From a virus, in IMG/VR virus record IMGVR_UViG_3300035210_000132, positions 156,596 to 199,134 of that record: DNA of 42,539 nt; one strand, 5' to 3'. Made by a program: the position numbers and the translations under genes. The notes below the pieces were generated by a model. That model saw only the letters and a program-made list of their open reading frames with translations, was not told the origin of the DNA and made no database searches. This document shows positions 2,423 through 41,898 of this stretch, one piece after another (the first letter of the stretch is position 1; each line of letters starts with the position of its first letter).

Positions 2423-2462
2423 GGTTCCTTCTCCTAAATCTGAGAGCTAAAAGATGGTCTCA

Positions 2463-11708: not shown

Positions 11709-11780
11709 ACTACATTCTCCTTCTTACTGAGCCAGCTGGGAAGCGGTAGCTTGAGAGCTAAAAACAATCAAGGCCGTTAC

Positions 11781-24010: not shown

Positions 24011-24049
24011 GCTAAAAATAGGCCAAAAAGGAGGATATAAGAAGATTGA

Positions 24050-24636: not shown

Positions 24637-24671
24637 AAAGGGGCCCGGCAATATGCTGGGTCCCTTTTTTT
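24637..24671. terminator. Bidirectional rho-independent terminator between the convergent membrane-protein gene and the terminase gene.
   Basis: AAAGGGGCCC...GGGTCCCTTT stem with one G:U wobble, followed by TTTTTTT. The A tract upstream makes it symmetric. The terminase stop codon (24670-24672) overlaps the T tract. Confidence 0.6.
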
Positions 24672-28646: not shown

Positions 28647-29121
28647 GCTCCTGCATGCACTTCACGCGAAAGACCCCATCGCTCTGATCGACGGTATCTG
28701 TGATCTGCTCTATGTACTCTACGGAGCGGCGGACACCTTTGATCTCCCTCTAGGACGTATTGCCGAAGAAGACCTGCAACCTCGCATCCCTGCGCTGTCC
28801 TTCGAAGAGATCCAGGAGAATGCCAAAGACTTCCAGTCCACCATCGCCGGGGTGCTAGCCGACATCCAGATGCAGAATATCGGGATGCTTTTGGCTGGCC
28901 TACGTGATGCCATCGGAGGTTGCTGGTTGATCGCCAGTGAGGGCCTGGGCCTAGCCCTTGGACCCTTCTTCGAAGAAGTCCACCGCACCAACATGCTGAA
29001 GGTGACCGGCCCTGTCAGAGCCGATGGTAAGAAGCTCAAACCCGAAGGGTGGATCGGGCCTCGCATCGAGGACATGTACGCGAAGCGAAAAGGCATGCCG
29101 TGCCCAGAGGGTACTCCTTAG
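28534..29121 (+). CDS. mazG: MazG-like all-alpha nucleoside triphosphate pyrophosphohydrolase (195 aa).
   Basis: Acidic metal-binding helix motif KLIVEEAGELLHALHAKDP, a second conserved acidic helix (EEDLQ...FEEIQE), and phage house-cleaning context. GGAGG RBS. Confidence 0.55.
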   Translation: MISRYLNMVQEFNRAIQAPRGWEAKGLRGKLIVEEAGELLHALHAKDPIALIDGICDLLYVLYGAADTFDLPLGRIAEEDLQPRIPALSFEEIQENAKDFQSTIAGVLADIQMQNIGMLLAGLRDAIGGCWLIASEGLGLALGPFFEEVHRTNMLKVTGPVRADGKKLKPEGWIGPRIEDMYAKRKGMPCPEGTP

Positions 29122-29131
29122 GAGCAGTTCG

Positions 29132-29356
29132 ATGGCCGATCCTAAGGGGAAGGGTAAGAAAGAAGACCTGATCCCCACCAAACCACTACGTCCACTTCAC
29201 AACGATCCCGACTTCCATGCTTTCCGCCTCGAGTACAAGGTCGATCTGAAGACGGGCATCATTTATGTCACGTACGTCTGTTCCGACTGTGCACTCCGCC
29301 ATGTCGAGGTGCATGCTCCGGTTAAGAATTTTCATGCCCCCCTTAAAAAGGACTAA
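29132..29356 (+). CDS. Small protein (74 aa; MADPKGKGKKEDLIP...YVCSDCALRHVEVH) with a basic N-terminus and a CxxC motif.
   Basis: The ORF track starts it at 29024, inside mazG. The ATG at 29132 has an AGGAG RBS and begins right after the mazG stop. Confidence 0.45.
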   Translation: MADPKGKGKKEDLIPTKPLRPLHNDPDFHAFRLEYKVDLKTGIIYVTYVCSDCALRHVEVHAPVKNFHAPLKKD

Positions 29357-29359
29357 CGG

Positions 29360-29962
29360 ATGAAGAGCTTGGTCGTTGTCTGTGACCTCGACAGCATTGT
29401 CATCGATCTTCTTGGCCCCTGGTTAGACTGGTACAACAGCAAGTGGAAAGACTCTCTTACTGTGGATGACCTCGTCCAATACGACATCCACAAAATCGTC
29501 AACCCAGATTGTGGTACCCAGATCTACGACTTCCTACACGACAGCCCAGAACGCTATCGAAAACTGCCCCCTATTCAAGGGGCGGTCGCATCGCTGAAGC
29601 TCTTGCAAGATGCCGGGCATGATCTCATTCTAGCCTCTGCCGTACTGGGGGACACTGCTGGCGAGAAGTTCCGTTGGTGCCACCAGAACTTGCCGTTCCT
29701 ACCTACACAAAACCTCATGGTTGGGGCACGGAAAGAACGCATCTGGGGCGATATCTTCATCGACGATGCCCCCAAAAACTTACTGGCGTACCGAGCGTGC
29801 TGGTCCGAGGCTACGTTGATGTCGATCATGTACCCCTACAACCGCCACATGACGGCTCACGTCGATGTGCATGCCGACGGGTACCTAGACACAGGAAAAG
29901 CCTGGAGTGAGATAGTGAAGGCGATTCAAGATATCGCCGAGTATGATGAGCAGAATACGTAG
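29360..29962 (+). CDS. HAD-superfamily 5'(3')-deoxyribonucleotidase-like protein (200 aa).
   Basis: Motif I VVVCDLDSIVIDL (DxD), a mid motif LPPIQGAVASLKLL, and motif IV GDIFIDDAP. These align with mitochondrial/cytosolic dNT-1/2 (VLVDMDGVLADF ... LIDDRP). Confidence 0.65.
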   Translation: MKSLVVVCDLDSIVIDLLGPWLDWYNSKWKDSLTVDDLVQYDIHKIVNPDCGTQIYDFLHDSPERYRKLPPIQGAVASLKLLQDAGHDLILASAVLGDTAGEKFRWCHQNLPFLPTQNLMVGARKERIWGDIFIDDAPKNLLAYRACWSEATLMSIMYPYNRHMTAHVDVHADGYLDTGKAWSEIVKAIQDIAEYDEQNT

Positions 29963-30285: not shown

Positions 30286-30683
30286 CAGCTGATCCTTTTG
30301 TCTAGGGCGTCGAATACCTGGATCACGAGAGGGTCTGCCATCGGGTTACCGGCGTAGCCGATCACCTTGACTGCCCAGGAGTTGAGCTCCTCAGCGAACG
30401 CAGCTTGGATCCGATCCTCGAGCTTGAAGACTTCCAGGAAGGCTGCAGCTAGCTTCTCCTCGAAGTGTAAAATCTCTGTCTCAAGGAAGAAGTGATAGAT
30501 GTAGTCATCCCCTCGCTGGGCTACTTCGGCCACATACATCTTCCGGTCGGTACGGTAGAACTCCAAGGGAGCGAATGGAGTCGGTGGCGCCAGCTTGACC
30601 ACTTCATCGGATACATTAGGACGGGTCTTCGCCCCTGCCTCAACCCGAGCCATCCAGTCCTGGTACGCGTTGGTCTCGATCAT
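30285..30683 (-). CDS. Hypothetical protein (132 aa).
   Basis: Complete ORF, 4-nt overlap with the upstream gene. Confidence 0.5.
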   Translation of the reverse strand: MIETNAYQDWMARVEAGAKTRPNVSDEVVKLAPPTPFAPLEFYRTDRKMYVAEVAQRGDDYIYHFFLETEILHFEEKLAAAFLEVFKLEDRIQAAFAEELNSWAVKVIGYAGNPMADPLVIQVFDALDKRIS

Positions 30684-31549
30684 ACCTCAACCTCATCAGA
30701 AGGAGCCTCAAGCATCTTGACGCCTGAGTTGGAGTAATTGCCGTCCGGGGCCAGCTCCCTCATACCTGGAGGGGTCTTCTTGCTGTGCTGCATGCGGAAC
30801 TGTTCGAAGGCCTTGAGCGAATCTTTCAAAGCTCCATCAGCTTGGGAGAGCTGCATGTCCAAGAGAGTAGCCGACCGGGCCAGGGCGGAGAATGCCTTTG
30901 TACGGCTGAGCCCGTGCTCCTTGGTCTTCCACTCCCTGAAGTCGAAGTACACGCCTTCCAACATGTCTTTGAGGATGGTCTTCGAGTCGATGGACTGCTG
31001 GAAGCCCATCTTGTGGAGAGCCATGGCTGGGCCCACCTGAATGATCGACAGCGTGTTCTGGCGCTGAGTGTCGTAGTCTTTCAGTAGCTGTGACCAGTCT
31101 TCCACAGTGAGTCTAGCGACATTCCAGTAGTAGTGCCCGTAGGCCTCGATGCCCTCACTCGTGAAGAACTCCCCCAAACGAGCATTGGCCTTCTTGGCGA
31201 TCTCTTTAGGATCCATGCGGCCCAGCAAGAGGTTCTCGACAATAGGACGAGCTCGTAGGTTGATTACCAAGAGCTGCGCTTCTCGGGAGGGCTTGTCTGG
31301 GTTGTGTAGTCCGTAGATACCTTCCGCCCTCATGAACCTCACAGACTCTCTGTGATAGCGATTGTTGGGCTGGAAGTTAGAAGGCCGTCTCGAGTTGAGG
31401 TCGGCTCGCAGCCACATGAGGTAGTCTTGCTCTGGCAAGGGGAAGCCCAGAGAGACTAGGGTCGTAGCAACCCACTGATCCTGCCCTGACTGAGGATGGC
31501 TCGAGGTCATGAGGAACTTGCAGAAGTTCGCGCTAGGATGCGGGATCAT
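30680..31549 (-). CDS. Hypothetical protein (~289 aa from MIPHPSANF...).
   Basis: The ORF track begins at 31582. The ATG at 31549 has an AGGAGG RBS 5 nt upstream and forms an ATGA overlap with the C39 peptidase stop. Confidence 0.5.
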   Translation of the reverse strand: MIPHPSANFCKFLMTSSHPQSGQDQWVATTLVSLGFPLPEQDYLMWLRADLNSRRPSNFQPNNRYHRESVRFMRAEGIYGLHNPDKPSREAQLLVINLRARPIVENLLLGRMDPKEIAKKANARLGEFFTSEGIEAYGHYYWNVARLTVEDWSQLLKDYDTQRQNTLSIIQVGPAMALHKMGFQQSIDSKTILKDMLEGVYFDFREWKTKEHGLSRTKAFSALARSATLLDMQLSQADGALKDSLKAFEQFRMQHSKKTPPGMRELAPDGNYSNSGVKMLEAPSDEVEV

Positions 31550-32079
31550 GTGGCCTCCTGGGGCAGGATCACAATACCCCACTTATGGACTACCTCGTGT
31601 GGAGGTTCCATCTTATGATCCCACCATCGCGACTCCATCTCTGTTAGTGGGATGGTGCGTTGGTTACTGGGTGTGTTTGGATCCATGAGGTGGGCCTGTA
31701 CCTGATCCATAGACACCAACACGACATAGTGGCCCTTGCCCGGATGGTTCCAACTCTGTACGTCACAAATGATGGGTATTTGCTGGTCCAGCAAGATCTT
31801 GGCTTGCTTTAGAGAGTCGAAGCTGTACTCAAAGGCATCAAGCCCATACTGCCGAGCAGCTTCAGCAATCTCCGTGACCTCGGCACCTCTACCAGGACGA
31901 GCACCGATCAACTGCACCGCGGCCTCTTCTTCGATAGGAATGCCGTAGTGCTCAAGCACCGCCTTGAAGCACGCAGCGGAACAAGTCCACTGGGTCTTCT
32001 GCTGGTAGGGGCTGACCTTGGCGATCTTCTCGAGCTCGCTCAGGTGCTGTGTAGCTAGAATGTCACGGAGAATGCCCAT
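31546..32079 (-). CDS. Standalone peptidase C39-family (double-glycine/bacteriocin-processing-type) papain-like cysteine peptidase (177 aa).
   Basis: The full domain pattern was read directly: oxyanion Gln and catalytic Cys in SPYQQKTQWTCSAACFKAVLEHYG (C39 Q-x6-CG-x-A-x-L), then NHPGKGHYVVLVSMDQ...HLMDP (His, Asp, DP). Confidence 0.72.
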   Translation of the reverse strand: MGILRDILATQHLSELEKIAKVSPYQQKTQWTCSAACFKAVLEHYGIPIEEEAAVQLIGARPGRGAEVTEIAEAARQYGLDAFEYSFDSLKQAKILLDQQIPIICDVQSWNHPGKGHYVVLVSMDQVQAHLMDPNTPSNQRTIPLTEMESRWWDHKMEPPHEVVHKWGIVILPQEAT

Positions 32080-32081
32080 AT

Positions 32082-34292
32082 CTAGCTGGCTTCGCCTTGC
32101 TGCAGTGACCGCAGACCTTCGATGACCGACTCCATGCCTCGCATGGATCTCTCGATCGCACCTTCGTCGACCTGGGACATGCCCAGACGTGAGGCCACGA
32201 GAGTCTCGGCCAGCTTCTGCGAAGCCGAATCGAGCTCGGGCAAGTAGTTGGCGAAGGTGTTGATGTTGTCTGGATTCAGGAAGTTCAGAGACAGGACCTT
32301 GTCAGCCGTCTCTCCGTCTTCTAGAGCGGCAGCTTCCTTCACCAGGTTCTTCTTCAAGTGGTACGGGAAGCCCGCAAGGCTCTTGGCCGCCCGCTTCACC
32401 ATCTGCTTATGCACGTGAGCAAGAGGCACAATGGGCAGCATCCCACCAACTTTTACCAGACCTTGCTCCTGTGAGCGGCGAAGCACGTCACGAGCCTGGA
32501 ACTGGTTCAAGCCCATGCCTACGAGGAGAAACTCTGCCTCAGCATGCTTGAGGAACTGCTTCTGTTCCTTGGCGACCTTGTCTAGAGGTTGGCCTTGCAG
32601 AGAGAAGTCATCGTTCCCTGTAGAGGCCACGTTCACACTTGCCGGGGAGGCCTTGGCCTCCTGGATTTGCTCTACGTCTAGAGGTTGCTTGGCGAGGAAC
32701 AAGGGCTCGCCCTGAAGGGGGCACCAGTGGACGGTATCGGGAAGAGCATACTCATCATCACTGAGCTGATGGATCTCCTGGAGCCCTGGAGAGATAGAAA
32801 GCGAGACTGGCTCTCCGAACATGTTCTCGGCATGAAGCTGGACTCCTCCACTTGGGTCTTGTCCCTGAGCATGCACGACGACAGGCAGAAGGGCAGAGCT
32901 GACTCCGTTGACGTCACAGAGGACTGCCCCTTCTCCTTGTGCCTCACTGAGGTGAGTGGTTTGAGGGGGAGGCACTTCATCTTGTACAGGAGACCCGGCA
33001 ATCTCTTCTTGGACTGCGTAGCCTTGCTCCCCAATGAAGAGGAAGAGCCCCATCGGCTGCTCACTCATATCGACGACAGGGAAGACGTGGCCTACCATCT
33101 CCTCGTTGGTCTCCATGCTTTGAACCTTGTAGACACCTGCCTCCGTGACAGGCACGTAGCCACCAGGAGTAGGAGGGGTCATAGGCTTCTGGGTACCTAG
33201 AGTTGCAGTAGCCCCCGGCTGCATGCCTCCGACGTCATGGCCAGTCATCTGTGAGGCTTGCTCGGGACCCACTTCGCCTTCCTGCGGCATAAAGGCTCCG
33301 GAGTTGGCCCACTTGACCTTGAAATTGCCTGAGGCCAACTTCTGGATCTGCACCACAGTAGGCTTGATGCGATCTACGATCGCCTCGGCTGTCTTCTGCA
33401 GGGCCAGCGTAGGGGCCTGAGCAACTTTCATGGCCATCTCTGAAAATGTCGGGTTGGCAGCTGCTGCGTTACGGAGCTCCTTGTCCTCAGCAATCTGATC
33501 GACGAACTCGTCGGCATCCGTCTCTTGGATGGTGTCAGAGATAGCATCAAGAAGAGAAGAGCCCTTGGCCATGCCGTTCATGTTCGGGTTAGCCGCCGCT
33601 TCGGAGTGCATCCTGCTGATGTAGGCCCTTCTTGCCTGCTCTGCTGGAAGGGCTCCTGCGGTCTTGGTCTGGTCCATCAACTGATCGACAAGAGGAGCGG
33701 CCTTGTCGGCCAGGAGATGATACACTCTCGATTTGGGGGTGTTGAAGAGCGGCTTTCCCCGCAGAGGGTTCTCGTAGGCCTCGGCATCCTCAGCCATCTT
33801 GCCCATACCCATAGTATCGGATCCCAGAGAACCCATGCCATAGTTGGTGCGCATGGGAGGGTAGAGCTGGTCGGTCAAACCCTTGTCTGAAGGTTTGCGC
33901 ACCGAAGGCTCGAAGGTCGAAGTCCGGAAGAGCTTCTCCCTGACCCGCTTCTCTGTCAGGGGGTAAACCCCTTTGCCATCCATGAAGACATCAAAAGGAG
34001 CCAGCATCCGCTCCTTGACGATGATGGGGATGCGCAGCGTGGGTAGCTTCTCTTGATCTCCAGCAGGGGCCTGACTCTTGTTGGTGATCTGAGCTGAACC
34101 GAAGGCGAAGCCCTTTTCGGCATCGACCCGGTCAACGATCACATTGACAGCATAATCACCAAGGAAGGGTACCTGCTTGAATACCTCGGACGCGATCTCG
34201 CGCTGCCAGACTTCGGGAGAGTCCGAGAGCTTGACGGGCATCGCTACTTTGGTGAAGGTGAGCTTGTGATCGAGGAAAAGAGACACCGTCAT
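32082..34292 (-). CDS. Large hypothetical virion protein (736 aa). Baseplate hub-like or portal-like by size and context only.
   Basis: Complete ORF coupled by ATGA overlap to the spike gene upstream. No diagnostic motif. Confidence 0.45.
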   Translation of the reverse strand: MTVSLFLDHKLTFTKVAMPVKLSDSPEVWQREIASEVFKQVPFLGDYAVNVIVDRVDAEKGFAFGSAQITNKSQAPAGDQEKLPTLRIPIIVKERMLAPFDVFMDGKGVYPLTEKRVREKLFRTSTFEPSVRKPSDKGLTDQLYPPMRTNYGMGSLGSDTMGMGKMAEDAEAYENPLRGKPLFNTPKSRVYHLLADKAAPLVDQLMDQTKTAGALPAEQARRAYISRMHSEAAANPNMNGMAKGSSLLDAISDTIQETDADEFVDQIAEDKELRNAAAANPTFSEMAMKVAQAPTLALQKTAEAIVDRIKPTVVQIQKLASGNFKVKWANSGAFMPQEGEVGPEQASQMTGHDVGGMQPGATATLGTQKPMTPPTPGGYVPVTEAGVYKVQSMETNEEMVGHVFPVVDMSEQPMGLFLFIGEQGYAVQEEIAGSPVQDEVPPPQTTHLSEAQGEGAVLCDVNGVSSALLPVVVHAQGQDPSGGVQLHAENMFGEPVSLSISPGLQEIHQLSDDEYALPDTVHWCPLQGEPLFLAKQPLDVEQIQEAKASPASVNVASTGNDDFSLQGQPLDKVAKEQKQFLKHAEAEFLLVGMGLNQFQARDVLRRSQEQGLVKVGGMLPIVPLAHVHKQMVKRAAKSLAGFPYHLKKNLVKEAAALEDGETADKVLSLNFLNPDNINTFANYLPELDSASQKLAETLVASRLGMSQVDEGAIERSMRGMESVIEGLRSLQQGEAS

Positions 34293-35413
34293 GCTTTCAC
34301 GTCCTTGGACTTGTAGATAATGGGAGGAAGAAGAGCGGGGCTCTTGGCAGCCGGCCCGACACCTAGCAAGAGAGCCGTTACTTGGTTGATCCAGGCCGAG
34401 AGCTGCCCGTTATCGATCACCACCGGAGCCATAGCCGCTCCCAGTTGGACCGCGCCTCCTGACAAGGCAGCGCCACCACTACCGAGTACGAGCTGACCTG
34501 CACCACTAACTAAAGAGATAGTGGGAGCGCCAAAATTGGCGGCACTGCCTGCTGTGACTTTCAGGTCGGTGGCTACAGTCAACTTGGCGCTCTTCTTTAC
34601 CGTAGCAGACAGTTGGCCAGAGATAGCCAAGGTTACATCTCCCTCTACTGTCCAGTTGATGTCCCCGGCTTTAGAAATGGTGAGATTGGTCTTGACACTG
34701 CCGCCGCCGCTGTCTCGAGTAACGAGACTCAGGATAGTTTTACTACCTCCCCCATGGGAACCGATTTTCAGGACCGCCAGAGGGGCCTGGTTCGGGTCAT
34801 CGGCATGCTCTTTACAGGAGATCGTTAGGTGCGTGAGGCTCTTGCCATCGCCACTATCCTCGATACGGTCTACTTCCCAGCTCAAGTCCCCCCCAGGAGT
34901 GGTGAGCTGGTAGTTCTCAGCAAAGTCGCGGATGATATTCCTGATAGGGATATAGACCCGCTGGCAGATGGGAGTGGCTCCTATCTGGACGATCCCGCCT
35001 CGGCGTAGGTACAAGAAGTTCGCATCTCGGGTCGAGAGGTGCAAATCGCCACTGTTCAGGCGCTCACGACCACTTCGGTACGACCCCTTCTCGTGTACGG
35101 TGGTCCAGCCCAGGACAAAGGCATCACGACCCGTATCAGAGCTCTTGCACACCCAGCAAGTAGAGCCCAACTCAGGAGCGAAGTTGATGCCCTCGCCGTT
35201 GTTCTGGTGGACGTAGGGCACCATATACGGAATGTCATAGTGGCTTGAGTGGGGGTAGGCCTCGTAGCGAACCGCCACCGTGAAGTTACCGGTGTTGACC
35301 GCAATGATCTGAGCCCGATGAACCTCAGCAGGTTTCGCCCCAGGAGAGGCGGCTGACTCAGAACGAGGCGGGGTTACTCCTCCCGCTTTAGCTATCTCAG
35401 GGGATTCGGCCAT
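34289..35413 (-). CDS. Baseplate central spike protein (374 aa), P2 gpV / Mu gp45-like: N-terminal OB-fold plus C-terminal beta-helix needle.
   Basis: The N-terminal segment GNFTVAVRY...PELGSTCWVCKSSDTGRDAFVLGWTT fits the gpV OB-domain pattern (P.vGd.V.V.f..Gd....vlG). The C-terminal half is a repetitive short-strand Gly/Ser/Thr/Val beta-helix (VKTNLTISKAGDINWTVEGDVTLAISGQLSATVKKSAKLTVATDLKVTAGSA...). Confidence 0.5.
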   Translation of the reverse strand: MAESPEIAKAGGVTPPRSESAASPGAKPAEVHRAQIIAVNTGNFTVAVRYEAYPHSSHYDIPYMVPYVHQNNGEGINFAPELGSTCWVCKSSDTGRDAFVLGWTTVHEKGSYRSGRERLNSGDLHLSTRDANFLYLRRGGIVQIGATPICQRVYIPIRNIIRDFAENYQLTTPGGDLSWEVDRIEDSGDGKSLTHLTISCKEHADDPNQAPLAVLKIGSHGGGSKTILSLVTRDSGGGSVKTNLTISKAGDINWTVEGDVTLAISGQLSATVKKSAKLTVATDLKVTAGSAANFGAPTISLVSGAGQLVLGSGGAALSGGAVQLGAAMAPVVIDNGQLSAWINQVTALLLGVGPAAKSPALLPPIIYKSKDVKA

Positions 35414-35416
35414 GGC

Positions 35417-38400
35417 TTAATAGTAGTGCGGCCTTTCTTTCGTGCCCAAGCCAAATTCGCTCCCACGCGCGTAAGCTGGGATCGGGTTACTCCCGTGCAG
35501 GTCTGTCTTCCAACCCTTTGCCGTACCCTCGAGAAGAGTGTGACGGAGCTCCTGGAAATTCAGGCGGGCCAGCCAGTCTTCGTGCTGATCCCTAGCCATC
35601 TGCTCCGCTCCTCTCAGGATCGGTTCATGGAGGATAGGCTTGCCTCCAGACTTGAGGTTCTTGTTGAAGTCCTCGACCACGCTTCTCTGAGCAAAGTCTC
35701 CATGAAGATGCTCTGAGTCTCCTGGATCTTTCACCTGTGTGATGTTGGTCAAGGCGCGAACCACGGTTTCGATGTTACGCCGCTTTACCCGGGCATCCTT
35801 GTAGACCGAGGTGTGGAGCTGATCTGTCAGGAAGTTCTGCACTTGATGAATGTCAGTATACTTGAGGAGGTCTCTTGGATTAATAAGACCGTCAGAGAGA
35901 GCTTCGCCTTTCTTGACGTCCATCCCAGTTTTCAAGGGCTGTCCCTCATACATCGGCTCACGCTGGGCCGAGATGAAGTGCTTCTCTCCTCCCACAAAAA
36001 TGTTCCAGCCATTGGTGGCTATGTCTTTCTCTATCTTCTGGATAGGGCCAGAAGCGCGAGAAAGCACGGCGGCGTTGCGTAACACCTTGGGCATCTCGAG
36101 CAACTGATTCAAGCGATCGAACTTGGTCAAAGATCCCCCTCCCTTGGAAGAGGCCACACCACCTGTGTGGAAGCTATCCATGGCCAACTGGGTTGCGGGC
36201 TCTCCCATGGCATGCCCAGCAATGACCCCAATGTTGGCACCCACCTCGTGAGTGTTCCCACTCTCGTTGAGGCCGTAACACTTGGCGCAAATGCCTTGGT
36301 GGTGAGCACACTTCAGAGGAGAGCGCACCACCACTTTGTCGATGTTGTGCTTCTTGAGAGTGGCTAGTAGGTTGCCGTCTATCAAAGACCCTGCTGCGAT
36401 GCTCTGGCCTCCGGGAAGCTTCACAGGAGCCGCCAAGTAGCGATCGGCGACGTCGTCCTCGGAGGTATGCAGCATGATGCCTTGGGTAGTGCCGCAGTCC
36501 TTGGACTCGATCATGTTGGGGATGACAACGTTGACAATTTCCTTGGTCAAACGCCCAGGCTCCGAGGTCCCTTCTACCTTCTGGATAGTGCCCTTGCGTG
36601 CTCCATGCATGGCCGTCCAGTAGTCTCCTGTGTCCAGGCCCTCAGAGTAAGACTTCTTCACAGGCGTAGTAAGCACATTCCCTAAAGCATCTTGCATGAG
36701 CATTGGAGCGATCGTCATCTGACGAAACTGGTCCATACTGCTACGTGCCCCAGAGTTCACCATCATGTAGGCATTGTTCTGAGACTTCTCGAAGAGAGGT
36801 CGTGTGTCCCTGACCATGTCCGAGGTAGCCTGTGTGTAGATGCCTATGACACGTTCTTTCTTCTGCTCGGGAGCAAGCTTGCTGTCACTGTGTATCTTGG
36901 CCACTTCGGCGTCGGCCTTGCGCAGAATGGCGTCACGGATTTCTTTGTGAACAGTCAAGTCGCTAAGGTTCAAGGTCGACCCCAGCTCGTAGCTGTACTG
37001 GTTACCTAGATTCTTCAGGTTATCAACAGTGACGGGGAAGTTCTTCGGGTCTTCCTTGGCAATGCGCCCTAGTAAGTTGTGCACCCCAAAACGCTTCTCG
37101 TCTTTCTTGTCTGTACGCTTGACGAACACGAAGTTAGGGTCTTGGAACAGACCGATGATCGCCGGGTCATGGCGAATTGATTCTGGTAGGTGCTCAGAGA
37201 TCAACTCGCGCCCTAGGGTAGTCTTCTTGCTTGCGATGCTCACTACGTCGTTGACGTGCAAAGCGCTCTGCGCTTGTGCCTTCTTGGCTTCTGCTAGCGT
37301 ATGAAAGCTCTTCCCTGTCTCCTTGCCCCACTTCGAGAGCATGTGCAGCCCTAGCATTGACTCGTGGTCAGGCGCATACATGATCCCGCCTGTGGTGCTG
37401 GAGAACAAGTTGTTCGACGGAAACATCTTGTGCGCCTCTTTGACGGCATCGTCCCCAAGGGGAACGAAGGCAGACATAGCATCGCCATCAAAGTCAGCGT
37501 TGTAGCCCGTGCATACCAGGGGATGGATCTTGATGGCTCGGCCTTCTACCAGCTTGGGCTTGAAGGCCATAACCCCAAACTTGTGGAGCACGGGGTCGCG
37601 CTTGAGTAGAATGGGCCGTTTGTCCATCGCTGCTTGCAGGGAGTGCCATGCAATCTTGGAACCTTGCTTGATCTCTTTCAGGGCCTGAATCGGGTCGTAG
37701 CCACTGAACTGCATCTCCCTGACCACGAACGGCTTGTAGAGCTCCATCGCTGAGTCTTTCGGGATGCCTACGTGATCCAGATCCATAGAAGGTTCTGGGA
37801 TGATGGTCGAGCGCATCGATAGCTCTTGCCGTCGCTTCATGAGCTTCTTCTGGAAGTAACCTTCTTTGGGAGAGGTCCCAGAAATGGTGTCCAGAATGCC
37901 CTTCATCTTGCGGTTGGACTCGTAGAGGGGCTTACCTCCAGGAAGTCCAGCTAGACCTCGGGTGTACTCGTAGAGATCTTCCCTGAGATCCTTCAGGCCC
38001 TCGTCGCCGAGCTCCTTCGGGGCCTCTTTGTACTGCTTGATGACGTGCCCGAGCGACTTGTAGTAGTAGTTGATGTCGTCTGGACGGAGGGCTCCGTCTG
38101 GCATGGGGACGATGGGGCGGTAGACAGGAGGCAGAACAGGTATGTGGTTCAGCATGTAAGCCTCCGTTGGCTTCATGCCGATACCGTCCAGGGCTTGCAG
38201 GAACTTGGTCTTGCGGTTGGCTTTGTCTAGCTGTGAGCCGCGAAGAGAGCCTAGGCTGGCCTTAACCTTTACCAGCTCCTCCTTGACGTTGATCTTCGCC
38301 AAGAGGCTATTGATCGCTGCCCCTCCGGTCTTGCCATCGATAGAAGTGTGGCCTCTAGCTATTTCCTCGAACTCATCGAACTTAAGACCCGTAAGAACAA

Positions 38401-41400
38401 CAGCTGGACCAGGGTGCTTGTTAGTCCCAACAAAGACCGGGTTAGGGACCGGCTCTGGGAGCGATATATGTGACCACTTAAGTCCCTTCCCCACATCATT
38501 TGGCAGCCCTCCTGTGATCTTGGGGTCAAAGAGACCCCTCTCCAGTTCCTTGGCATCTTTGCCTCGAAGCACGCGTCCGGCGTCTAGCAACTGGCCATTC
38601 GACATGGAGAGAATACCACTGTCTGTCAAAGGCTGGAGGACCAAACTGTTGCCCTCCTTTTTGACATTGACCCCTAGCCCGGTAAGCATCGCCTCGAACT
38701 TCTTGTAGGCGAAGGGGATCTGGGGAGGGGGAAGGGGTTGGCCGGTCTGCACCCGCTGCCAGAAATCGATGTGCTCTGCTGGGTTGTTACGATCTCCTGT
38801 ATGCTGCTCTGCCTTGTAGGTGGCCATCTCGCGAAGGTTAGCTCGAGCTCCGTGAGCCAGCATCGCATAGAGCTCTAACTGGCCCATTGCCTGTCCAGGG
38901 TGCTCGGCCCCTGTGCCCTTCGGAGATCTGTCCAACGAGTAGTTAGGCCCGTTGGAGCGTACCGACATCTTCTTCTCGACCTGATGCTTGAGCTTGAGGA
39001 TGTACTGGTTGCCTTGAAAGATCTCCCCTAACTTCTTGCCAGTGGCCCCATCGAACAAGGTCTCGGTGTCTGAAATGTTGTGGGCCTTGAGCTCATCTTT
39101 GATCTTCTGGGTATAGTCGGTACCATCACCGCTGAAGTTCTGGATGAGGTAGGGCTTTCCTGTCTTCTGCGCGATCTTGGCAGCAGCTGTCTCGAGAAGC
39201 TGACCTAGGTTGATGCGAGAAGACACCCCCGAAGGGTTGAGCAGCATCTGGACGTGCTCCCCATCAGGGCCACCGATGCGGGGCATCTCGTGATCGGGGA
39301 TGATCTTCGTGATGATACCTTTGTTGCCATGACGACCTACGATCTTGTCGCCAATCTCCGTGGGCTCTAGGGTCTTGACATGAACCGTGACTTCTTTGCC
39401 GTTCGGGTTCTTCGTGACCTTGACGACTTCTCCTTCGTGCTGGTTGTCCCAGACCACGGACTTGTCCCGGATGGCGAAGAGCTTCTTGTCTAGGCGGCTA
39501 ACGGCGCGAGCGCTCTCGCCTGTAAGATCTCGCTTGCCTATAGCAGCAAGCAAAACATCACCAGGCATGACCTTCTGTCCTACTTGAATCACCCCATCAT
39601 CACCAAGCTTGTTCATCTGCTCTTTGGTGAGTTGGCTAGCTGTAGTCGAGGCGAAGGCGACGAACTTCTTCTTGTCGAGGAAGTCTTTCTCCGGATCGAT
39701 CTCGATGCTGTGCCGGTGCACGTGCTCCGAGGTCAGCTTCTTGGCCCCTGACTCGGAGATGACCACCCCGTCCTCGAAGTTGTAGCCTTTGTAGGGCATG
39801 TAAGCGACGCGAATGTTGGTACCTAGAGAAAGCACACCATCCTTGGTGAAGTTCGAGTCAGCGATGACCTGGCCCTTCTTCACAGCATCACCAACCTTCA
39901 CATTCAGGTCGGAGTGCATACAGGTCTTCGTGTCATTCAGGGGGAAGTGGTTGTAGACCTGTATCTCATGCTTCTTGCCATCATGACTCTGAAGCACTAA
40001 CGAGGAAGGATAGCCGTTAACGGGGTCTTTCTTGATGGCTGCCACGTGACCATCGAAGGGGGACTCGTGGGACCAAGGAGTGCCAACGATCCTTTCCCAG
40101 GATTGGCCAGAGCCTGATTTGACCTGTACTTGAGGCTGCTCCCGATAGTGCAGACCGATGGCCTGGGACAGCTGCTTCGAGGCCACCATGGTACGATTGC
40201 CTTGATCGTTCTGCAGGAACGGGATGAGATTGGTGCTCTCATCGAAGAGCTGGTTCGCTGACATGAGCACGTAGCGTCCCTGGGAGAAGGGCTTCTCTAC
40301 GATCTCGTGGGTCTTTGGGTCCTGCATCTTGACTGCGGAAGCTATCGGGGTCGGTTTGCCCTTCACCCACTTCACCTGGTCAGGAAGGACGATCTGTCCT
40401 GTGTGCAGCTCTGCGGGAGTGACTCGTATCTGCTTACCGGTCTGCAGGTCGTGTACGAGGGTGGTGACCTCGTTGCCTTCTTTACGAACTCCTAGAGGTA
40501 GGTGCAGGGTGATCCCAGTACGACCATCAGGAGTGTGCACTGGATCAAGAAAGCCAAGATGCGAAGGGTCGATGATCTGCATCTCCGCCGTGACCGTCTG
40601 CTCGTTCTTGATGCCGCCTTCATCGGGAGCGATAATGGTAGTGACTCGGTGGTTCGACAGCATCTCCAGGGGATTGACCTGTTCTGGGGTCCTGGCTGTC
40701 TGGGACTTGGAAAAGTACTCGTGGATCGGTTTGGCGAAGAACTCCCCCGCGATGATGTCGCGTACTTTGACTTGCCGATCTATGTTGTTGCTGACCTTCT
40801 GCCGAATGGCAGCTTTGGTCTGAGGCTTGACTAGCTTCTCGTGCAAGAAGTCATCGAGAGAGTGCAGCTGCTTGAAGATGAGAGAATCGCGATTGTCCTG
40901 AGGGATATCCCCACGAGCCACCTCGAGGATACGCTTGGAAGCTAAAAGAAGAGCCTCCCCGGTCACACTGGTGATGGGCTTACCCAGAGTTGCCTTGGTG
41001 GTCTCAGGCAACAGCTTGGCTGCATCAAAAGTAGACCAGATAGCCGCTAGCTTGTCATCGTGCTTGTCAGATACGGCCTTGACTCCTCGAGTGGCCATCT
41101 TGTCGTAGAGGTCAGAAGCTTGTTGCTGGACTTGCTTGTCGTTCTTGAGGTTGGCCTTGTAAATCGCATCGCCCCAAGTCTTCTTCATCTCCTCATCGGA
41201 GACCCCGAGGTTTCTGAGCATGGAGTACAACGGGTAGTTGCTGCTCTCGAACTTGAGGTGGAAAGACTTCTTCTCGGGATCGAAAGGGATGTATACTCTC
41301 GAGGACTTGGCGAGGGGGGTGGCCAAGTTGAACTCAGCCTGCATCTTGCCGTTTTGCTTGATGTGAGCGTAGACCCCAGAGCGTAGTCGCCAGACGTTGT

Positions 41401-41734
41401 CGACCTGCTTCTCCGTGCCATTGACGATGTAGCTGTAGCGCTGAGTGGGCTTGGGCAAGGTGAAGAGCTTGATCTTCTGCCTATCGATCTCCTTTCCTGT
41501 CTCTTTATCAACAAGCCCCACCTCACCATAGACCGTTGCCCCCCAAGTGCGGCCAAGGGCCTTGGCTTCTTCTTGTGACTTGAGATCGGCAGTTACTGCG
41601 CCCTTCTCATCAAAAGAAATATCGTGAAGGACAAGAGAGTTTTTACGACCCTCGATAGGAAAGTTCTCCTTGATGCCCGCGCTGACGCGAGTGCGGAGAT
41701 CTTCCCAGGTTTTGTCAATTAGACTTAAAGCCAC
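35417..41734 (-). CDS. rpoBC: Single-chain multisubunit-type RNA polymerase (2105 aa): bacterial beta homolog (residues ~1-1000) fused in-frame to a beta-prime homolog (~1001-2105). The beta-prime N-terminal zinc-finger region is absent.
   Basis: Beta motifs read directly: YIVNGTEKQV, LNPSGVSSRINLGQLLET, GDKIVGRHGNKGIITKI (GRHGNKG at 39317-39337), YILKLKHQVEKKMSVRSNGPNYSLDRSP...GQLELYAMLAHGARANLREM. Beta-prime motifs: MLNHIPVLPPVYRPIVPMPDG, RSTIIPEPSMDLDHVGIPKDSAMELYKPFV, PILLKRDPVLHKFGVMAFKPKLVEGRAIKIHPLVCTGYNADFDGDAMSAFVPL (NADFDGD at 37481-37501), and the C-terminal Zn site CGTTQG...CAHHQGICAKCYG. GTG start with AGGAG 7 nt upstream. Confidence 0.93.
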   Translation of the reverse strand: MALSLIDKTWEDLRTRVSAGIKENFPIEGRKNSLVLHDISFDEKGAVTADLKSQEEAKALGRTWGATVYGEVGLVDKETGKEIDRQKIKLFTLPKPTQRYSYIVNGTEKQVDNVWRLRSGVYAHIKQNGKMQAEFNLATPLAKSSRVYIPFDPEKKSFHLKFESSNYPLYSMLRNLGVSDEEMKKTWGDAIYKANLKNDKQVQQQASDLYDKMATRGVKAVSDKHDDKLAAIWSTFDAAKLLPETTKATLGKPITSVTGEALLLASKRILEVARGDIPQDNRDSLIFKQLHSLDDFLHEKLVKPQTKAAIRQKVSNNIDRQVKVRDIIAGEFFAKPIHEYFSKSQTARTPEQVNPLEMLSNHRVTTIIAPDEGGIKNEQTVTAEMQIIDPSHLGFLDPVHTPDGRTGITLHLPLGVRKEGNEVTTLVHDLQTGKQIRVTPAELHTGQIVLPDQVKWVKGKPTPIASAVKMQDPKTHEIVEKPFSQGRYVLMSANQLFDESTNLIPFLQNDQGNRTMVASKQLSQAIGLHYREQPQVQVKSGSGQSWERIVGTPWSHESPFDGHVAAIKKDPVNGYPSSLVLQSHDGKKHEIQVYNHFPLNDTKTCMHSDLNVKVGDAVKKGQVIADSNFTKDGVLSLGTNIRVAYMPYKGYNFEDGVVISESGAKKLTSEHVHRHSIEIDPEKDFLDKKKFVAFASTTASQLTKEQMNKLGDDGVIQVGQKVMPGDVLLAAIGKRDLTGESARAVSRLDKKLFAIRDKSVVWDNQHEGEVVKVTKNPNGKEVTVHVKTLEPTEIGDKIVGRHGNKGIITKIIPDHEMPRIGGPDGEHVQMLLNPSGVSSRINLGQLLETAAAKIAQKTGKPYLIQNFSGDGTDYTQKIKDELKAHNISDTETLFDGATGKKLGEIFQGNQYILKLKHQVEKKMSVRSNGPNYSLDRSPKGTGAEHPGQAMGQLELYAMLAHGARANLREMATYKAEQHTGDRNNPAEHIDFWQRVQTGQPLPPPQIPFAYKKFEAMLTGLGVNVKKEGNSLVLQPLTDSGILSMSNGQLLDAGRVLRGKDAKELERGLFDPKITGGLPNDVGKGLKWSHISLPEPVPNPVFVGTNKHPGPAVVLTGLKFDEFEEIARGHTSIDGKTGGAAINSLLAKINVKEELVKVKASLGSLRGSQLDKANRKTKFLQALDGIGMKPTEAYMLNHIPVLPPVYRPIVPMPDGALRPDDINYYYKSLGHVIKQYKEAPKELGDEGLKDLREDLYEYTRGLAGLPGGKPLYESNRKMKGILDTISGTSPKEGYFQKKLMKRRQELSMRSTIIPEPSMDLDHVGIPKDSAMELYKPFVVREMQFSGYDPIQALKEIKQGSKIAWHSLQAAMDKRPILLKRDPVLHKFGVMAFKPKLVEGRAIKIHPLVCTGYNADFDGDAMSAFVPLGDDAVKEAHKMFPSNNLFSSTTGGIMYAPDHESMLGLHMLSKWGKETGKSFHTLAEAKKAQAQSALHVNDVVSIASKKTTLGRELISEHLPESIRHDPAIIGLFQDPNFVFVKRTDKKDEKRFGVHNLLGRIAKEDPKNFPVTVDNLKNLGNQYSYELGSTLNLSDLTVHKEIRDAILRKADAEVAKIHSDSKLAPEQKKERVIGIYTQATSDMVRDTRPLFEKSQNNAYMMVNSGARSSMDQFRQMTIAPMLMQDALGNVLTTPVKKSYSEGLDTGDYWTAMHGARKGTIQKVEGTSEPGRLTKEIVNVVIPNMIESKDCGTTQGIMLHTSEDDVADRYLAAPVKLPGGQSIAAGSLIDGNLLATLKKHNIDKVVVRSPLKCAHHQGICAKCYGLNESGNTHEVGANIGVIAGHAMGEPATQLAMDSFHTGGVASSKGGGSLTKFDRLNQLLEMPKVLRNAAVLSRASGPIQKIEKDIATNGWNIFVGGEKHFISAQREPMYEGQPLKTGMDVKKGEALSDGLINPRDLLKYTDIHQVQNFLTDQLHTSVYKDARVKRRNIETVVRALTNITQVKDPGDSEHLHGDFAQRSVVEDFNKNLKSGGKPILHEPILRGAEQMARDQHEDWLARLNFQELRHTLLEGTAKGWKTDLHGSNPIPAYARGSEFGLGTKERPHYY

Positions 41735-41898
41735 CCGTGCGCTCCTGCTGTGAGGTTCCGGTTATGTACGAGGTCGAACAGCCCTACATCTAAGCGCTAA
41801 GACGATCCTCGGGCCGCTTCGACCAATATCAGAGTAGGTGTAAGCCGTCGTGGGAGTCAACAAAAACAAAGACTTTTATGTCATAAGTAGACTGAACT

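What the first reader, a model, noticed from the sequence alone, without database searches (positions are those of the whole stretch)
35417..41734. Compact fused beta/beta-prime RNA polymerase (2105 aa) encoded in a phage structural operon
Both catalytic signatures of cellular multisubunit RNAPs sit in one ORF: GRHGNKG (beta) and NADFDGD (beta-prime). Long stretches near-identical to bacterial RpoB and RpoC are visible by eye. Fusion of rpoB-rpoC is rare even in bacteria, which I recall only for Helicobacter and Wolbachia lineages, where the fusion exceeds 2800 aa. This one is about 25% shorter than beta plus beta-prime. It lacks the beta-prime N-terminal CxxC...CxxC zinc finger: GLFDPKITGG replaces GLFCARIFGP...C.C. 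It appears to lack the large lineage-specific insertions but keeps the C-terminal beta-prime Zn site. Its conservation is far higher than the highly diverged crAss/YonO-type phage RNAPs, suggesting a recent capture and streamlining of a host rpoBC. No alpha, omega or sigma genes are visible in the window.
Basis: seen in the sequence. Interest (0 to 1): 0.9.

Follow-up and report, generated by a model that had tools for sequence, protein, structure and literature searches.

The report
Single-chain beta-beta' RNA polymerase of phages
A large uncultured phage encodes both catalytic subunits of a bacterial-type RNA polymerase as one 2105-residue protein; it belongs to a large, old, phage-only family that comes with its own conserved promoter-like DNA motif, and it was not recently taken from a host.

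Summary
Window 35417-41734 (-) is one uninterrupted 2105-aa ORF with a full beta module (aa 1-1024), a conserved 16-aa junction and a beta' module (aa 1041-2105). GRHGNKG, NADFDGD, the bridge helix, the trigger loop and the second Zn site are present. The beta' N-terminal Zn ribbon and the lineage-specific insertions are absent.

The protein is 27% identical to bacterial beta+beta', whereas bacterial phyla are at least 47% identical to one another. It falls in a 100%-bootstrap clade of fusion-bearing phage polymerases outside all 68 bacteria sampled. This argues against a recent capture of host rpoBC. The junction is shared by 629 protein clusters (50% identity), on contigs of up to about 220 kb. 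Conserved neighbours are a tail spike, a 736-aa protein of unknown function and a GpA-type terminase.

I also found a strand-specific motif, TCAnnnTTCTTAT(A/G)CC. It lies upstream of the polymerase gene in most relatives and recurs elsewhere (19 sense, 0 antisense, 0.2 expected). It probably marks the family's promoters.

The most likely function is host-independent transcription. Virion delivery is plausible but unproven. I rate this a new variant of a known kind, of moderate to high interest.

The parts
35417..41734 (-). Fused beta-beta' RNA polymerase ORF (2105 aa, GTG start, stop at 35417-35419)
38663..41734 (-). beta-like module, aa 1-1024. It aligns to almost the whole of a minimal bacterial beta (cyanobacterial 8syi_C residues 68-1047). 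beta SI1 and SI2 are absent.
40631..40711 (-). Equivalent of rifampicin cluster I (aa 342-368), 7/27 identical to E. coli. The aligned changes are Q513R, F514T, D516E, H526N, R529V and S531T.
   Evidence: alignment; resistance is an inference
39317..39337 (-). GRHGNKG, the active-site motif of the beta double-psi barrel (aa 800-806). Positions 1-6 are invariant in 33 of 33 family members; the final G is identical in 28 of 33.
38615..38662 (-). Junction KKEGNSLVLQPLTDSG (aa 1025-1040) joining the beta C-terminus to beta'. Its length is constant and the PLTD(K)G motif is conserved across the family.
35420..38614 (-). beta'-like module, aa 1041-2105. It aligns to B. subtilis and C. difficile beta' from about residue 113-165 to the C-terminus. 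SI3 is absent.
38480..38521 (-). Site of the missing beta' N-terminal Zn ribbon (aa 1072-1085). About 27 residues, including all four Cys, are deleted.
37481..37501 (-). NADFDGD, the Mg-binding motif (aa 1412-1418). ADFDGD is invariant in 33 of 33 family members; the N is identical in 31 of 33.
36521..36631 (-). Bridge helix equivalent (aa 1702-1738), 13/37 identical to E. coli.
36278..36496 (-). Second (C-terminal) beta' Zn site: C1747, C1809, C1816, C1819, all invariant in 33 of 33.
36146..36238 (-). Trigger loop (aa 1833-1863). The GEPATQ motif and the trigger-loop His are kept and there is no SI3 insertion.
41878..41895 (-). Promoter-like motif TCAGTCTACTTATGACAT (14.0 bits), 144 nt upstream of the GTG start. 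CTTATG.C is invariant in the two closest relatives.
41735..41877 (-). Putative 5' leader, with invariant islands shared with L003 and L019 (among them GG.CC.A.GA..G.TC...GCGC and GGAGCGCAC.GGTG).
34289..35413 (-). 374-aa gpV/VgrG-like central tail spike. It starts 3 nt after the polymerase stop codon and is linked to the polymerase in 41 of 81 related loci.
32082..34292 (-). 736-aa conserved protein of unknown fold and function. Its start overlaps the spike gene by 4 nt. It is linked to the polymerase in 48 of 81 loci.
31546..32079 (-). C39-family papain-like peptidase (177 aa) in the same operon.
30680..31582 (-). 300-aa conserved protein of unknown function in the same operon (31 of 81 loci).
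24670..27564 (-). GpA-type terminase large subunit (964 aa) with a LAGLIDADG-like insertion. It is linked to the polymerase in 44 of 81 loci.
24032..24049 (-). Second and strongest motif copy in the window, TCAATCTTCTTATATCCT (17.9 bits). It lies in a 39-nt gap and points towards the leftward operon that starts at 23279. It overlaps the reverse complement of a ribosome-binding site, so treat it with caution.

Best explanation
**What it is.** The ORF encodes an active, single-polypeptide DNA-dependent RNA polymerase of the cellular two-barrel type. A complete minimal beta module and a complete minimal beta' module are joined by a short conserved junction.

**Where it belongs.** It is a member of a very large and old family found only in phages. 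These are contractile-tailed phages on contigs of up to about 220 kb, known almost only from metagenomes. It is not a recently acquired host gene.

**How it probably works (shown or inferred).**
- Shown: all catalytic elements are conserved.
- Inferred from established knowledge: the beta C-terminus and the beta' N-terminus are adjacent in bacterial RNAP, and fused versions work (natural in Helicobacter, engineered in E. coli). The covalent link probably replaces the assembly role of the alpha dimer.
- Inferred from alignment: the Zn ribbon is gone. The host-sigma contact surfaces (clamp helices, flap-tip helix) and the rifampicin pocket have diverged. The enzyme is therefore expected to work without host sigma-70 and to resist rifampicin.
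- Inferred from motif statistics: it transcribes phage genes from a family-specific promoter, about TCAnnnTTCTTAT(A/G)CC. One copy sits 144 nt upstream of its own gene. It may act alone or with an unidentified phage factor.

**Delivery, unresolved.** I lean towards packaging in the virion and injection to start transcription (about 0.45-0.5). The gene heads a tail-spike operon and sits behind its own family promoter. This step is not shown.
For: **Domain content and catalytic motifs.**

**Family size and conserved junction.** At least 120 clusters at 90% identity of about 2050-2130 aa. 629 clusters at 50% identity match across the junction at E<=1e-10. 56 full fusions and 19 beta+beta'N fusions among 83 phage loci.

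**Distance from bacteria.** 26.7-30.4% identity to bacteria, against at least 46.8% among bacteria. The neighbour-joining clade has 100/100 support.

**Phage context and conserved linkage.** Spike, 736-aa protein, 300-aa protein and GpA-type terminase.

**Diverged host-interaction surfaces.** Clamp helices 9/47 identical, with R275I, R278Y and A302Y. The flap-tip hydrophobic patch L901/L902/I905/F906 becomes R/A/R/L. Rifampicin cluster I is 7/27 identical.

**Promoter-like motif.**
- CTTAT is on the sense strand in 47 of 64 upstream regions, against 2 of 64 for its reverse complement.
- In a held-out test on 1.54 Mb outside the polymerase-upstream windows, hits of at least 18 bits were 19 sense and 0 antisense, with 0.2 expected.
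- 34 of 44 strong sites lie outside same-strand ORFs (background 19%), with a median of 67 nt to the next start codon.
- Sigma-70-type promoters are not enriched in this part of the window: 7 found, 6.2 expected.
Against: - No biochemical or proteomic data exist for this family in what I could search.
- Only 42.5 kb of a 199-kb genome was available. A second polymerase, or a sigma-like or alpha-like gene, could lie elsewhere.
- The link between motif and polymerase is correlative. The motif could be read by host RNAP with a phage factor, or it could act on the other strand: 15 of 44 strong sites have a divergent ORF start within 200 nt.
- Within the window itself the motif is not enriched by count: 3 hits of at least 10 bits, 8.6 expected.
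- The clamp-helix and flap alignments lie in poorly conserved regions and may be imprecise.
- The tree is a neighbour-joining tree without an archaeal or eukaryotic outgroup, and long-branch effects are possible.
Confidence: 0.8

Rival explanations
1. The enzyme is not packaged in the virion. Host RNAP makes it after infection, and it then transcribes middle and late (structural) genes, as in T7. The motif would be a middle/late promoter. Its copy in front of the polymerase gene would only boost expression.
For: - Only one polymerase gene is seen per locus.
- The gene heads a long block that runs into structural genes.
- The motif also lies upstream of other co-directional genes.
- A TTGAC element conserved in two of three close relatives lies about 20 nt downstream of the motif. 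It could be part of a host-type promoter.
Against: - No convincing sigma-70-type promoter lies upstream of the gene. The only promoter-like match on its strand upstream of the start lies about 640 nt away, and such matches are at chance level overall.
- The gene is tightly linked to the tail spike gene, separated by 3 nt, in a late-type operon.
- Known phage polymerases encoded among structural genes are virion enzymes: N4, crAss-like gp66 and the P23-45 tape-measure fusion (10.1101/2022.12.01.518664; the rest from my own knowledge).
Confidence: 0.35
2. One reading: a host rpoB-rpoC pair, or a fused host rpoBC, was captured recently and then streamlined.
For: Every beta and beta' Pfam domain is recognisable, and bacterial beta' chains are the best matches in the PDB.
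Against: - 27% identity to all bacteria sampled, from Bacillota, Actinomycetota, Chloroflexota, Atribacterota, Patescibacteria and Pseudomonadota. No lineage is closer than 30.4% on trimmed columns.
- The phage clade is separate, with 100/100 bootstrap support.
- Family members are only 43-71% identical to one another, yet share the junction.
Confidence: 0.03
3. The phage protein is a replacement core that still uses host sigma factors, and perhaps host alpha and omega. It would redirect host-type transcription rather than run an independent programme.
For: - The clamp-helix coiled coil and the flap are retained in length.
- No phage sigma was found, so a borrowed sigma would fill the gap.
Against: - The sigma-contact residues on the clamp helices and the flap-tip patch are not conserved.
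- The conserved motif does not resemble -35/-10 elements, and it is shared by very divergent phages recovered from many different metagenomes.
- Sigma-70-like promoters are not enriched.
Confidence: 0.1
4. The window is part of a bacterial chromosome, for example of a CPR bacterium with a naturally fused rpoBC, and the ORF is the host's own polymerase.
For: A Candidatus Paceibacterota genome assembled from a metagenome does carry a fused 2284-aa rpoBC (L133).
Against: - That bacterial fusion is 28% identical to the query by BLASTP. On the trimmed columns it averages 54.5% identity to other bacteria and 27.3% to the fused phage enzymes, so it groups with bacteria.
- The window holds a terminase, a sheath-like protein, a spike and a polyvalent virion-type protein, and no ribosomal-protein, nus or tRNA genes.
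- Relatives lie on IMG/VR viral contigs of 100-220 kb.
Confidence: 0.01

Closest known systems
mReC: multisubunit-RNAP-encoding Caudovirales (Weinheimer & Aylward 2020, PMC7481178)
   Same: These are tailed phages from metagenomes. Their beta/beta' homologues are recognisable with cellular profiles, carry NADFDGD, and branch outside cellular lineages. Some contigs exceed 200 kb.
   Different: - In mReC, beta (about 1000-1490 aa) and beta' (about 890-1300 aa) are listed as separate proteins. Fusion is mentioned only for crAssphage.
- The mReC terminases are PF03237 (17 hits) with none in PF05876. The terminase here is PF05876.
- Three mReC-like loci with separate subunits (L080, L081, L083) are only about 24% identical to the fused clade and form their own clade.
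Salmonella phage Arash gp206/gp216 and Vibrio phages D69, D148 and D181 (isolated phages of 180-187 kb)
   Same: They have the same beta-to-beta' junction, the same loss of the Zn ribbon and about 30-32% identity. In the neighbour-joining tree they fall inside the fusion-bearing clade.
   Different: - beta is fused only to the N-terminal part of beta', through the catalytic motif (1525-1527 aa). The C-terminal 600 aa of beta' is a separate gene.
- The catalytic motifs vary in D69 (GLHGNKG, AADYDGD).
- The gene follows the portal gene rather than heading a spike operon.
- The proteins are annotated only as 'RNA polymerase subunit beta' or 'hypothetical'.
Natural bacterial RpoBC fusions (Helicobacter and Wolbachia, from my own knowledge; the Ca. 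Paceibacterota genome L133 seen here)
   Same: beta and beta' are covalently joined in the same order.
   Different: - The bacterial fusions are ordinary bacterial sequences. L133 averages 54.5% identity to other bacteria.
- They keep the Zn ribbon and work with alpha, omega and sigma (my own knowledge).
- They lie among housekeeping genes.
crAss-like phage gp66 and YonO: single-chain two-barrel phage RNAPs
   Same: One polypeptide carries both catalytic barrels. The protein is phage-encoded, and in crAss-like phages it is encoded among virion genes and delivered with the virion (my own knowledge; cited in PMC7481178).
   Different: Those enzymes are so divergent that cellular profiles do not detect them (PMC7481178). 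This protein matches all beta and beta' Pfam domains and aligns end to end with bacterial subunits.
phiKZ/AR9-type jumbo-phage virion and non-virion RNAPs (PMC7598289, PMC7824862)
   Same: They are phage multisubunit-type polymerases without alpha, omega or sigma, and they recognise their own promoters.
   Different: There, beta and beta' are each split into two or three polypeptides, with an extra specificity subunit. Here everything is fused. Similarity to their PHROG families is weak (E 1e-10 to 1e-23).

Membership tests
Cellular-type two-barrel RNAP (bacterial beta/beta' architecture) | beta double-psi barrel with the GRHGNKG lysine motif | tested here: met
   aa 800-806. Positions 1-6 are invariant in 33 of 33 and the final G is identical in 28 of 33. 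Rpb2_6 has E 2e-62.
Cellular-type two-barrel RNAP (bacterial beta/beta' architecture) | beta' double-psi barrel with the NADFDGD Mg-binding motif | tested here: met
   aa 1412-1418. ADFDGD is invariant in 33 of 33 and the N is identical in 31 of 33.
Cellular-type two-barrel RNAP (bacterial beta/beta' architecture) | Bridge helix, trigger loop, lid, rudder, switch 2 and clamp helices are present | tested here: met
   All can be aligned to Salmonella and Enterococcus beta'. The rudder is shorter.
Cellular-type two-barrel RNAP (bacterial beta/beta' architecture) | beta' N-terminal Zn ribbon (four Cys) | tested here: not met
   Deleted. There is no Cys in this region in 32 of 33 family members.
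Cellular-type two-barrel RNAP (bacterial beta/beta' architecture) | Second beta' Zn site (four Cys) | tested here: met
   C1747, C1809, C1816 and C1819 are invariant.
Cellular-type two-barrel RNAP (bacterial beta/beta' architecture) | Works with alpha2, omega and sigma subunits | tested here: inconclusive
   No alpha, omega or sigma Pfam domain is present in 35 ORFs of the window, or among the called genes of L003 and L087. About 157 kb of the genome was not seen.
mReC (Weinheimer & Aylward 2020) | Tailed-phage contig encoding beta and beta' homologues detectable with cellular profiles, with NADxDGD | tested here: met
mReC (Weinheimer & Aylward 2020) | beta and beta' are separate proteins of at least 800 aa each | tested here: not met
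   A single 2105-aa ORF here. The mReC tables list separate protein identifiers and lengths.
mReC (Weinheimer & Aylward 2020) | Terminase of family PF03237/VOG01069 and a gp23-like capsid protein (PF07068) | tested here: not met
   The terminase here is PF05876/phrog_675. No PF07068 hit occurs in the window.
mReC (Weinheimer & Aylward 2020) | The RNAP falls inside the monophyletic mReC clade | tested here: inconclusive
   Three mReC-like loci with separate subunits form their own clade, about 24% identical to the fused clade.
crAss gp66 / YonO-type single-chain RNAPs | Both barrels in one polypeptide | tested here: met
crAss gp66 / YonO-type single-chain RNAPs | Extreme divergence: no detectable similarity to the cellular beta/beta' profiles; only short sequence motifs are shared | tested here: not met
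   Eight Pfam beta/beta' domains match, and the protein aligns end to end with bacterial subunits.
crAss gp66 / YonO-type single-chain RNAPs | Packaged in the virion and injected (gp66) | not testable with these tools
   Only gene context is available: the tail spike gene is immediately downstream.
phiKZ/AR9-type jumbo-phage RNAPs | beta and beta' each split into several polypeptides, in two paralogous sets | tested here: not met
   One fused ORF, and one set per locus within +/-10 kb.
Bacterial natural RpoBC fusions | The sequence nests within bacterial RpoB/RpoC diversity and lies among housekeeping genes | tested here: not met
   26.7-30.4% identity to bacteria, and a phage gene context.

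The most novel reading that the evidence does not exclude
The fused beta-beta' enzymes would be a third major lineage of phage multisubunit-type polymerases: self-sufficient, single-chain enzymes that need no sigma or alpha. They would be carried in the virion next to the tail spike and injected. They would start a host-independent, rifampicin-resistant transcription programme from a conserved promoter of about 15 nt, TCAnnnTTCTTAT(A/G)CC, in a very large clade of roughly 200-kb environmental phages. The conserved 736-aa neighbour might be a new specificity or delivery factor. The lineage would have split from bacterial RNAP before the bacterial phyla diverged.
Probability: 0.3. Interest if true: 0.8.

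Novelty: new variant of a known kind. Interest (0 to 1): 0.6.

Why it matters
Bacterial-type polymerases are thought to need the alpha dimer to assemble and a sigma factor to start. Here is a natural, abundant, full-length beta-beta' enzyme that is a single chain, has lost the Zn ribbon, and has no visible alpha, omega or sigma partner. It would be a compact model for asking what the minimal cellular-type polymerase needs.

The family-wide promoter-like motif gives a template that can be tested directly. The family also offers a long, well-conserved phylogenetic marker for a large and almost uncultured group of roughly 200-kb phages, including a few isolates with a partly fused form. Finally, it extends the known routes by which phages escape dependence on host transcription.

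Tried and rejected
**Searches that found nothing**
- Exact-sequence look-up of the polymerase (P0001): not on record. The neighbouring 736-aa protein did locate a second assembly.
- Single-protein scan of viral contigs: nothing. The alignment-based scan worked.
- The genome-contig scan used generic patterns and returned only bacterial rpoBC loci. That was useful for the tree but says nothing about prophages or hosts.
- tblastn of the 374-aa and 736-aa neighbours against isolated phages: no match.
- The 300-aa and 426-aa proteins against the PDB: nothing. I could not identify a capsid gene.
- No tRNAs and no Rfam family.
- Literature searches for phage Arash, for fused beta-beta' phage polymerases and for rpoBC in jumbo phages found no description of this family. 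The library holds only open-access papers.

**Ideas considered and dropped**
- Sigma-70-type promoters occur at chance level.
- The exact 12-mer TGAGAGCTAAAA occurs twice in intergenic DNA, but it is not significant when mismatches are allowed.
- Recent host capture, a bacterial chromosome and an inactive relic were all rejected on the evidence above.

Full report
**1. The observation**

Window 35417-41734 (-) is a single uninterrupted ORF of 2105 codons. It starts with GTG, and a GGAG lies 8 nt upstream. A separately deposited assembly (Logan, SRR10968280) has a gene of the same length in the same context. A frameshift artefact is therefore unlikely.

Pfam finds Rpb2 domains 3, 6 and 7 followed by Rpb1 domains 1-5 in one chain. 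The strongest hit is Rpb2_6 at E 2e-62. GRHGNKG is at aa 800-806 and NADFDGD at aa 1412-1418.

**2. Anatomy**

- *beta half.* A search of the PDB with the N-terminal half aligns aa 54-1017 to residues 68-1047 of a 1100-residue cyanobacterial beta.
- *beta' half.* The C-terminal half aligns to B. subtilis and C. difficile beta' from about residue 113-165 to the end.
- *Junction.* I aligned the protein with Salmonella and Enterococcus beta+beta' and with the Vibrio phage D69 proteins, then mapped features in E. coli numbering. The beta module ends near aa 1024. A 16-residue junction (KKEGNSLVLQPLTDSG) follows, and beta' homology starts at I1041.
- *Missing parts.* The beta' Zn ribbon (C70/C72/C85/C88) is deleted, and so are beta SI1, beta SI2 and beta' SI3.
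- *Retained parts.* Lid, clamp helices, a shortened rudder, switch 2, the bridge helix (13/37 identical), the trigger loop with its His (18/33 identical) and the second Zn site.
- *Conservation across the family.* Across 33 family members the four Cys of the second Zn site are invariant and the two catalytic motifs nearly so (the last G of GRHGNKG is identical in 28 of 33, the N of NADFDGD in 31 of 33). The junction has constant length and a conserved PLTD(K)G motif. The region that replaces the Zn ribbon has no Cys in 32 of 33.
- *Size.* The protein is 23% shorter than Salmonella beta+beta' but only 13% shorter than Enterococcus. 'Compact' therefore mostly means that the lineage-specific insertions are absent.

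**3. Not a recent capture**

Identity to Salmonella beta+beta' is 27.2% and to Enterococcus 27.1%. Those two bacteria are 56.7% identical to each other.

A scan of bacterial genomes returned rpoBC loci from many phyla, none more than 32% identical in its best-matching segment. On 1891 trimmed columns of a 101-sequence alignment the results were:

| Comparison | Identity |
|---|---|
| Query to any of 68 bacteria | 26.7-30.4% |
| Bacterium to bacterium | minimum 46.8%, median 63.3% |

In a neighbour-joining tree with 100 bootstraps:
- All fusion-bearing phage enzymes form one clade (100), separate from all bacteria (100).
- The partly fused form is a clade (93) nested among the fully fused ones.
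- Three phage loci with separate subunits form a third group (97).

The tree method is simple and there is no outgroup. Even so, the identity gap alone rules out a recent host origin and points to no donor.

**4. A large family**

- The 90%-identity database holds at least 120 clusters of about 2050-2130 aa that are 43-71% identical to the query. They lie on contigs of up to about 220 kb. Many carry inteins and reach 2450-3370 aa. The query's own contig is 199,134 bp.
- A 181-aa probe spanning the junction matched 629 clusters at 50% identity with E<=1e-10. In the 150 best hits listed, nearly all match as one stretch across the junction, mostly in proteins of about 2000-3700 aa.
- Of 83 phage loci, 56 have the full fusion and 19 have beta fused to the N-terminal two-thirds of beta'. 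Four have separate genes and four are fragments.
- The partly fused form occurs in isolated phages: Salmonella phage Arash (gp206 plus gp216) and Vibrio phages D69, D148 and D181. There the gene follows the portal gene.

**5. Relation to what is known**

Weinheimer & Aylward (PMC7481178) described tailed phages with deep-branching beta and beta' (mReC).
- Their tables list the two subunits as separate proteins.
- Their terminases are PF03237, with none in PF05876.
- Their capsid proteins are gp23-like.
- 'Fused' appears in the paper only in connection with crAssphage.

The terminase in this window is PF05876. The mReC-like loci I recovered are only about 24% identical to the fused clade.

Reviews of jumbo-phage polymerases (PMC7598289, PMC7824862) do not mention this architecture. 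Five further literature searches found no description.

I therefore treat it as a new variant of a known kind. Bacterial-like polymerases in phages are known. This fused lineage without the Zn ribbon is, as far as I could find, undescribed.

**6. Context**

- The window is phage DNA. It holds a GpA-type terminase with a LAGLIDADG-like insertion, a 1234-aa protein with a sheath-like C-terminus, and a 1113-aa protein with an InPase domain of the kind found in minor head and polyvalent proteins. It also holds RNase HII, MazG-like and NT5C genes and a C39 peptidase.
- The polymerase heads a tightly packed block. The next gene starts 3 nt after its stop codon, and the one after that overlaps by 4 nt.
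- An AlphaFold model of the 374-aa downstream protein (pLDDT 68) matches VgrG, contractile-injection-system spikes, P2 gpV, the R2 pyocin spike and Mu baseplate proteins. Foldseek E-values are 2e-6 to 1e-3 with probability 1.0, but TM-scores are low. This agrees with a weak PHROG baseplate hit.
- Within 10 kb of the polymerase in 81 related loci, the spike occurs in 41, a 736-aa protein in 48, a 300-aa protein in 31 and the terminase in 44. The closest relative shows the same gene order.
- The 736-aa protein has no recognisable family or fold.

**7. A promoter-like motif**

I compared the 250 nt upstream of the polymerase start codon in 64 non-redundant loci.
- CTTAT is on the sense strand in 47 of them, and its reverse complement in 2.
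- The refined matrix is C-A-n-n-n-T-n-C-T-T-A-T-n-C-C.
- In the window it lies at 41878-41895 (-), 144 nt upstream of the GTG. CTTATG.C is one of the few invariant islands shared with the two closest relatives.
- I then ran a held-out test on 1.54 Mb of related loci, excluding the training regions. Hits of at least 18 bits were 19 sense and 0 antisense, with 0.2 expected. Hits of at least 16 bits were 26 and 5, with 2.8 expected.
- Of the 44 strong sense-strand sites (which include the sites upstream of the polymerase gene), 34 lie outside same-strand ORFs, against a background of 19%. The median distance to the next start codon is 67 nt. Some lie between co-directional genes.
- Sigma-70-type promoters are at chance level here.

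A motif that is conserved among phages whose polymerases are only 35-69% identical is best explained by recognition through phage-encoded machinery. That is an inference.

Two caveats apply. The motif is not enriched by count inside this window. Its second copy, at 24032-24049, overlaps the reverse complement of a ribosome-binding site.

**8. How it most likely works**

- *Shown.* A complete and conserved catalytic core in one chain, in a phage, within an old fused family.
- *Inferred from established knowledge.* In bacterial RNAP the beta C-terminus and the beta' N-terminus are adjacent, and fusions work. The link can therefore replace alpha-assisted assembly.
- *Inferred from alignment.* Host sigma-70 contacts are not preserved on the clamp helices (R275I, R278Y, A302Y) or on the flap-tip patch (L901/L902/I905/F906 become R/A/R/L). 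The rifampicin pocket is changed at six classic positions. This predicts independence from host sigma and resistance to rifampicin.
- *Inferred from context.* The gene sits behind the family motif and heads a tail-spike operon. Other phage polymerases encoded among virion genes are virion enzymes. I therefore lean towards delivery with the virion (about 0.45-0.5) over an enzyme that is never packaged (about 0.35).

**9. Verdict**

The feature is a member of a large, apparently uncharacterised family of single-chain bacterial-type phage polymerases with an associated promoter-like motif. Interest is 0.6.

Noticed in passing
window 41878-41895 (-) and 24032-24049 (-); loci L003-L083: A strand-specific motif, about TCAnnnTTCTTAT(A/G)CC, lies upstream of the fused polymerase gene in most relatives. 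It recurs elsewhere in those genomes, mostly in intergenic DNA 15-70 nt upstream of co-directional genes. The held-out count at 18 bits or more is 19 sense and 0 antisense, with 0.2 expected.
   Followed up: yes
[not shown]
   Followed up: yes
window 24670-27564 (-): The terminase large subunit is 964 aa. It has a GpA-type ATPase domain at aa 99-315 and a LAGLIDADG-like domain at aa 667-728. This is probably an intein or a homing-endonuclease insertion.
   Followed up: no
proteins P0002, P0017, P0024, P0052, P0056, P0068 and others; L087 1-1293: Many homologues of the fused polymerase are 2450-3370 aa long and carry intein or homing-endonuclease domains (PF14528, PF05204, PF14890). The class II ribonucleotide reductase just upstream of the polymerase in this same phage also carries an intein. 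These phages appear rich in inteins.
   Followed up: no
L133 (Candidatus Paceibacterota MAG, DATJQA010000074.1): A CPR bacterium has a naturally fused rpoBC of 2284 aa. Its sequence is of the ordinary bacterial type (on average 54.5% identical to other bacteria; 28% to the query by BLASTP). This is a bacterial fusion outside the Helicobacter and Wolbachia cases.
   Followed up: partly
L001 (Salmonella phage Arash gp206, gp216); L002 (Vibrio phage D69 VPHD69_0261, _0264): Isolated phages of 180-187 kb carry beta fused to the N-terminal part of beta' (1525-1527 aa), with a separate beta' C-terminal gene, directly downstream of the portal gene. In the Vibrio records the proteins are annotated only as hypothetical.
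   Followed up: partly
window 17818-21159 (-): A 1113-aa protein has an InPase domain (PF18823, E 3e-32). It matches PHROGs annotated as minor head, virion-structural or DarB-like proteins. It resembles the large polyvalent proteins that some phages inject along with their DNA.
   Followed up: no
window 2463-6167 (-): A 1234-aa protein whose last 200 residues match a tail sheath PHROG (phrog_279, E 1e-12). It would be an unusually long sheath-like protein.
   Followed up: no
window 27921-29962 (+): A cassette on the opposite strand encodes RNase HII, a MazG-like pyrophosphohydrolase and an NT5C 5'-nucleotidase, between the polymerase operon and the terminase gene. All three genes are also present in L003, in the same position and order.
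   Followed up: no
window 41735-41877 (-); L003 and L019 upstream regions: The roughly 140-nt leader between the motif and the GTG start has several invariant islands in three phages, although the surrounding sequence has diverged. It might be a structured or regulatory leader. There is no Rfam match.
   Followed up: partly
window 2441-2452 and 11752-11763 (+): The exact 12-mer TGAGAGCTAAAA occurs in two intergenic gaps between minus-strand genes. It is not significant once mismatches are allowed (4 found, 2.9 expected).
   Followed up: partly
window 31546-32079 (-): A C39-family papain-like peptidase (177 aa; 351 aa in L003) lies in the polymerase-spike operon. It could be a maturation protease or a lytic enzyme associated with the tail.
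   Followed up: no
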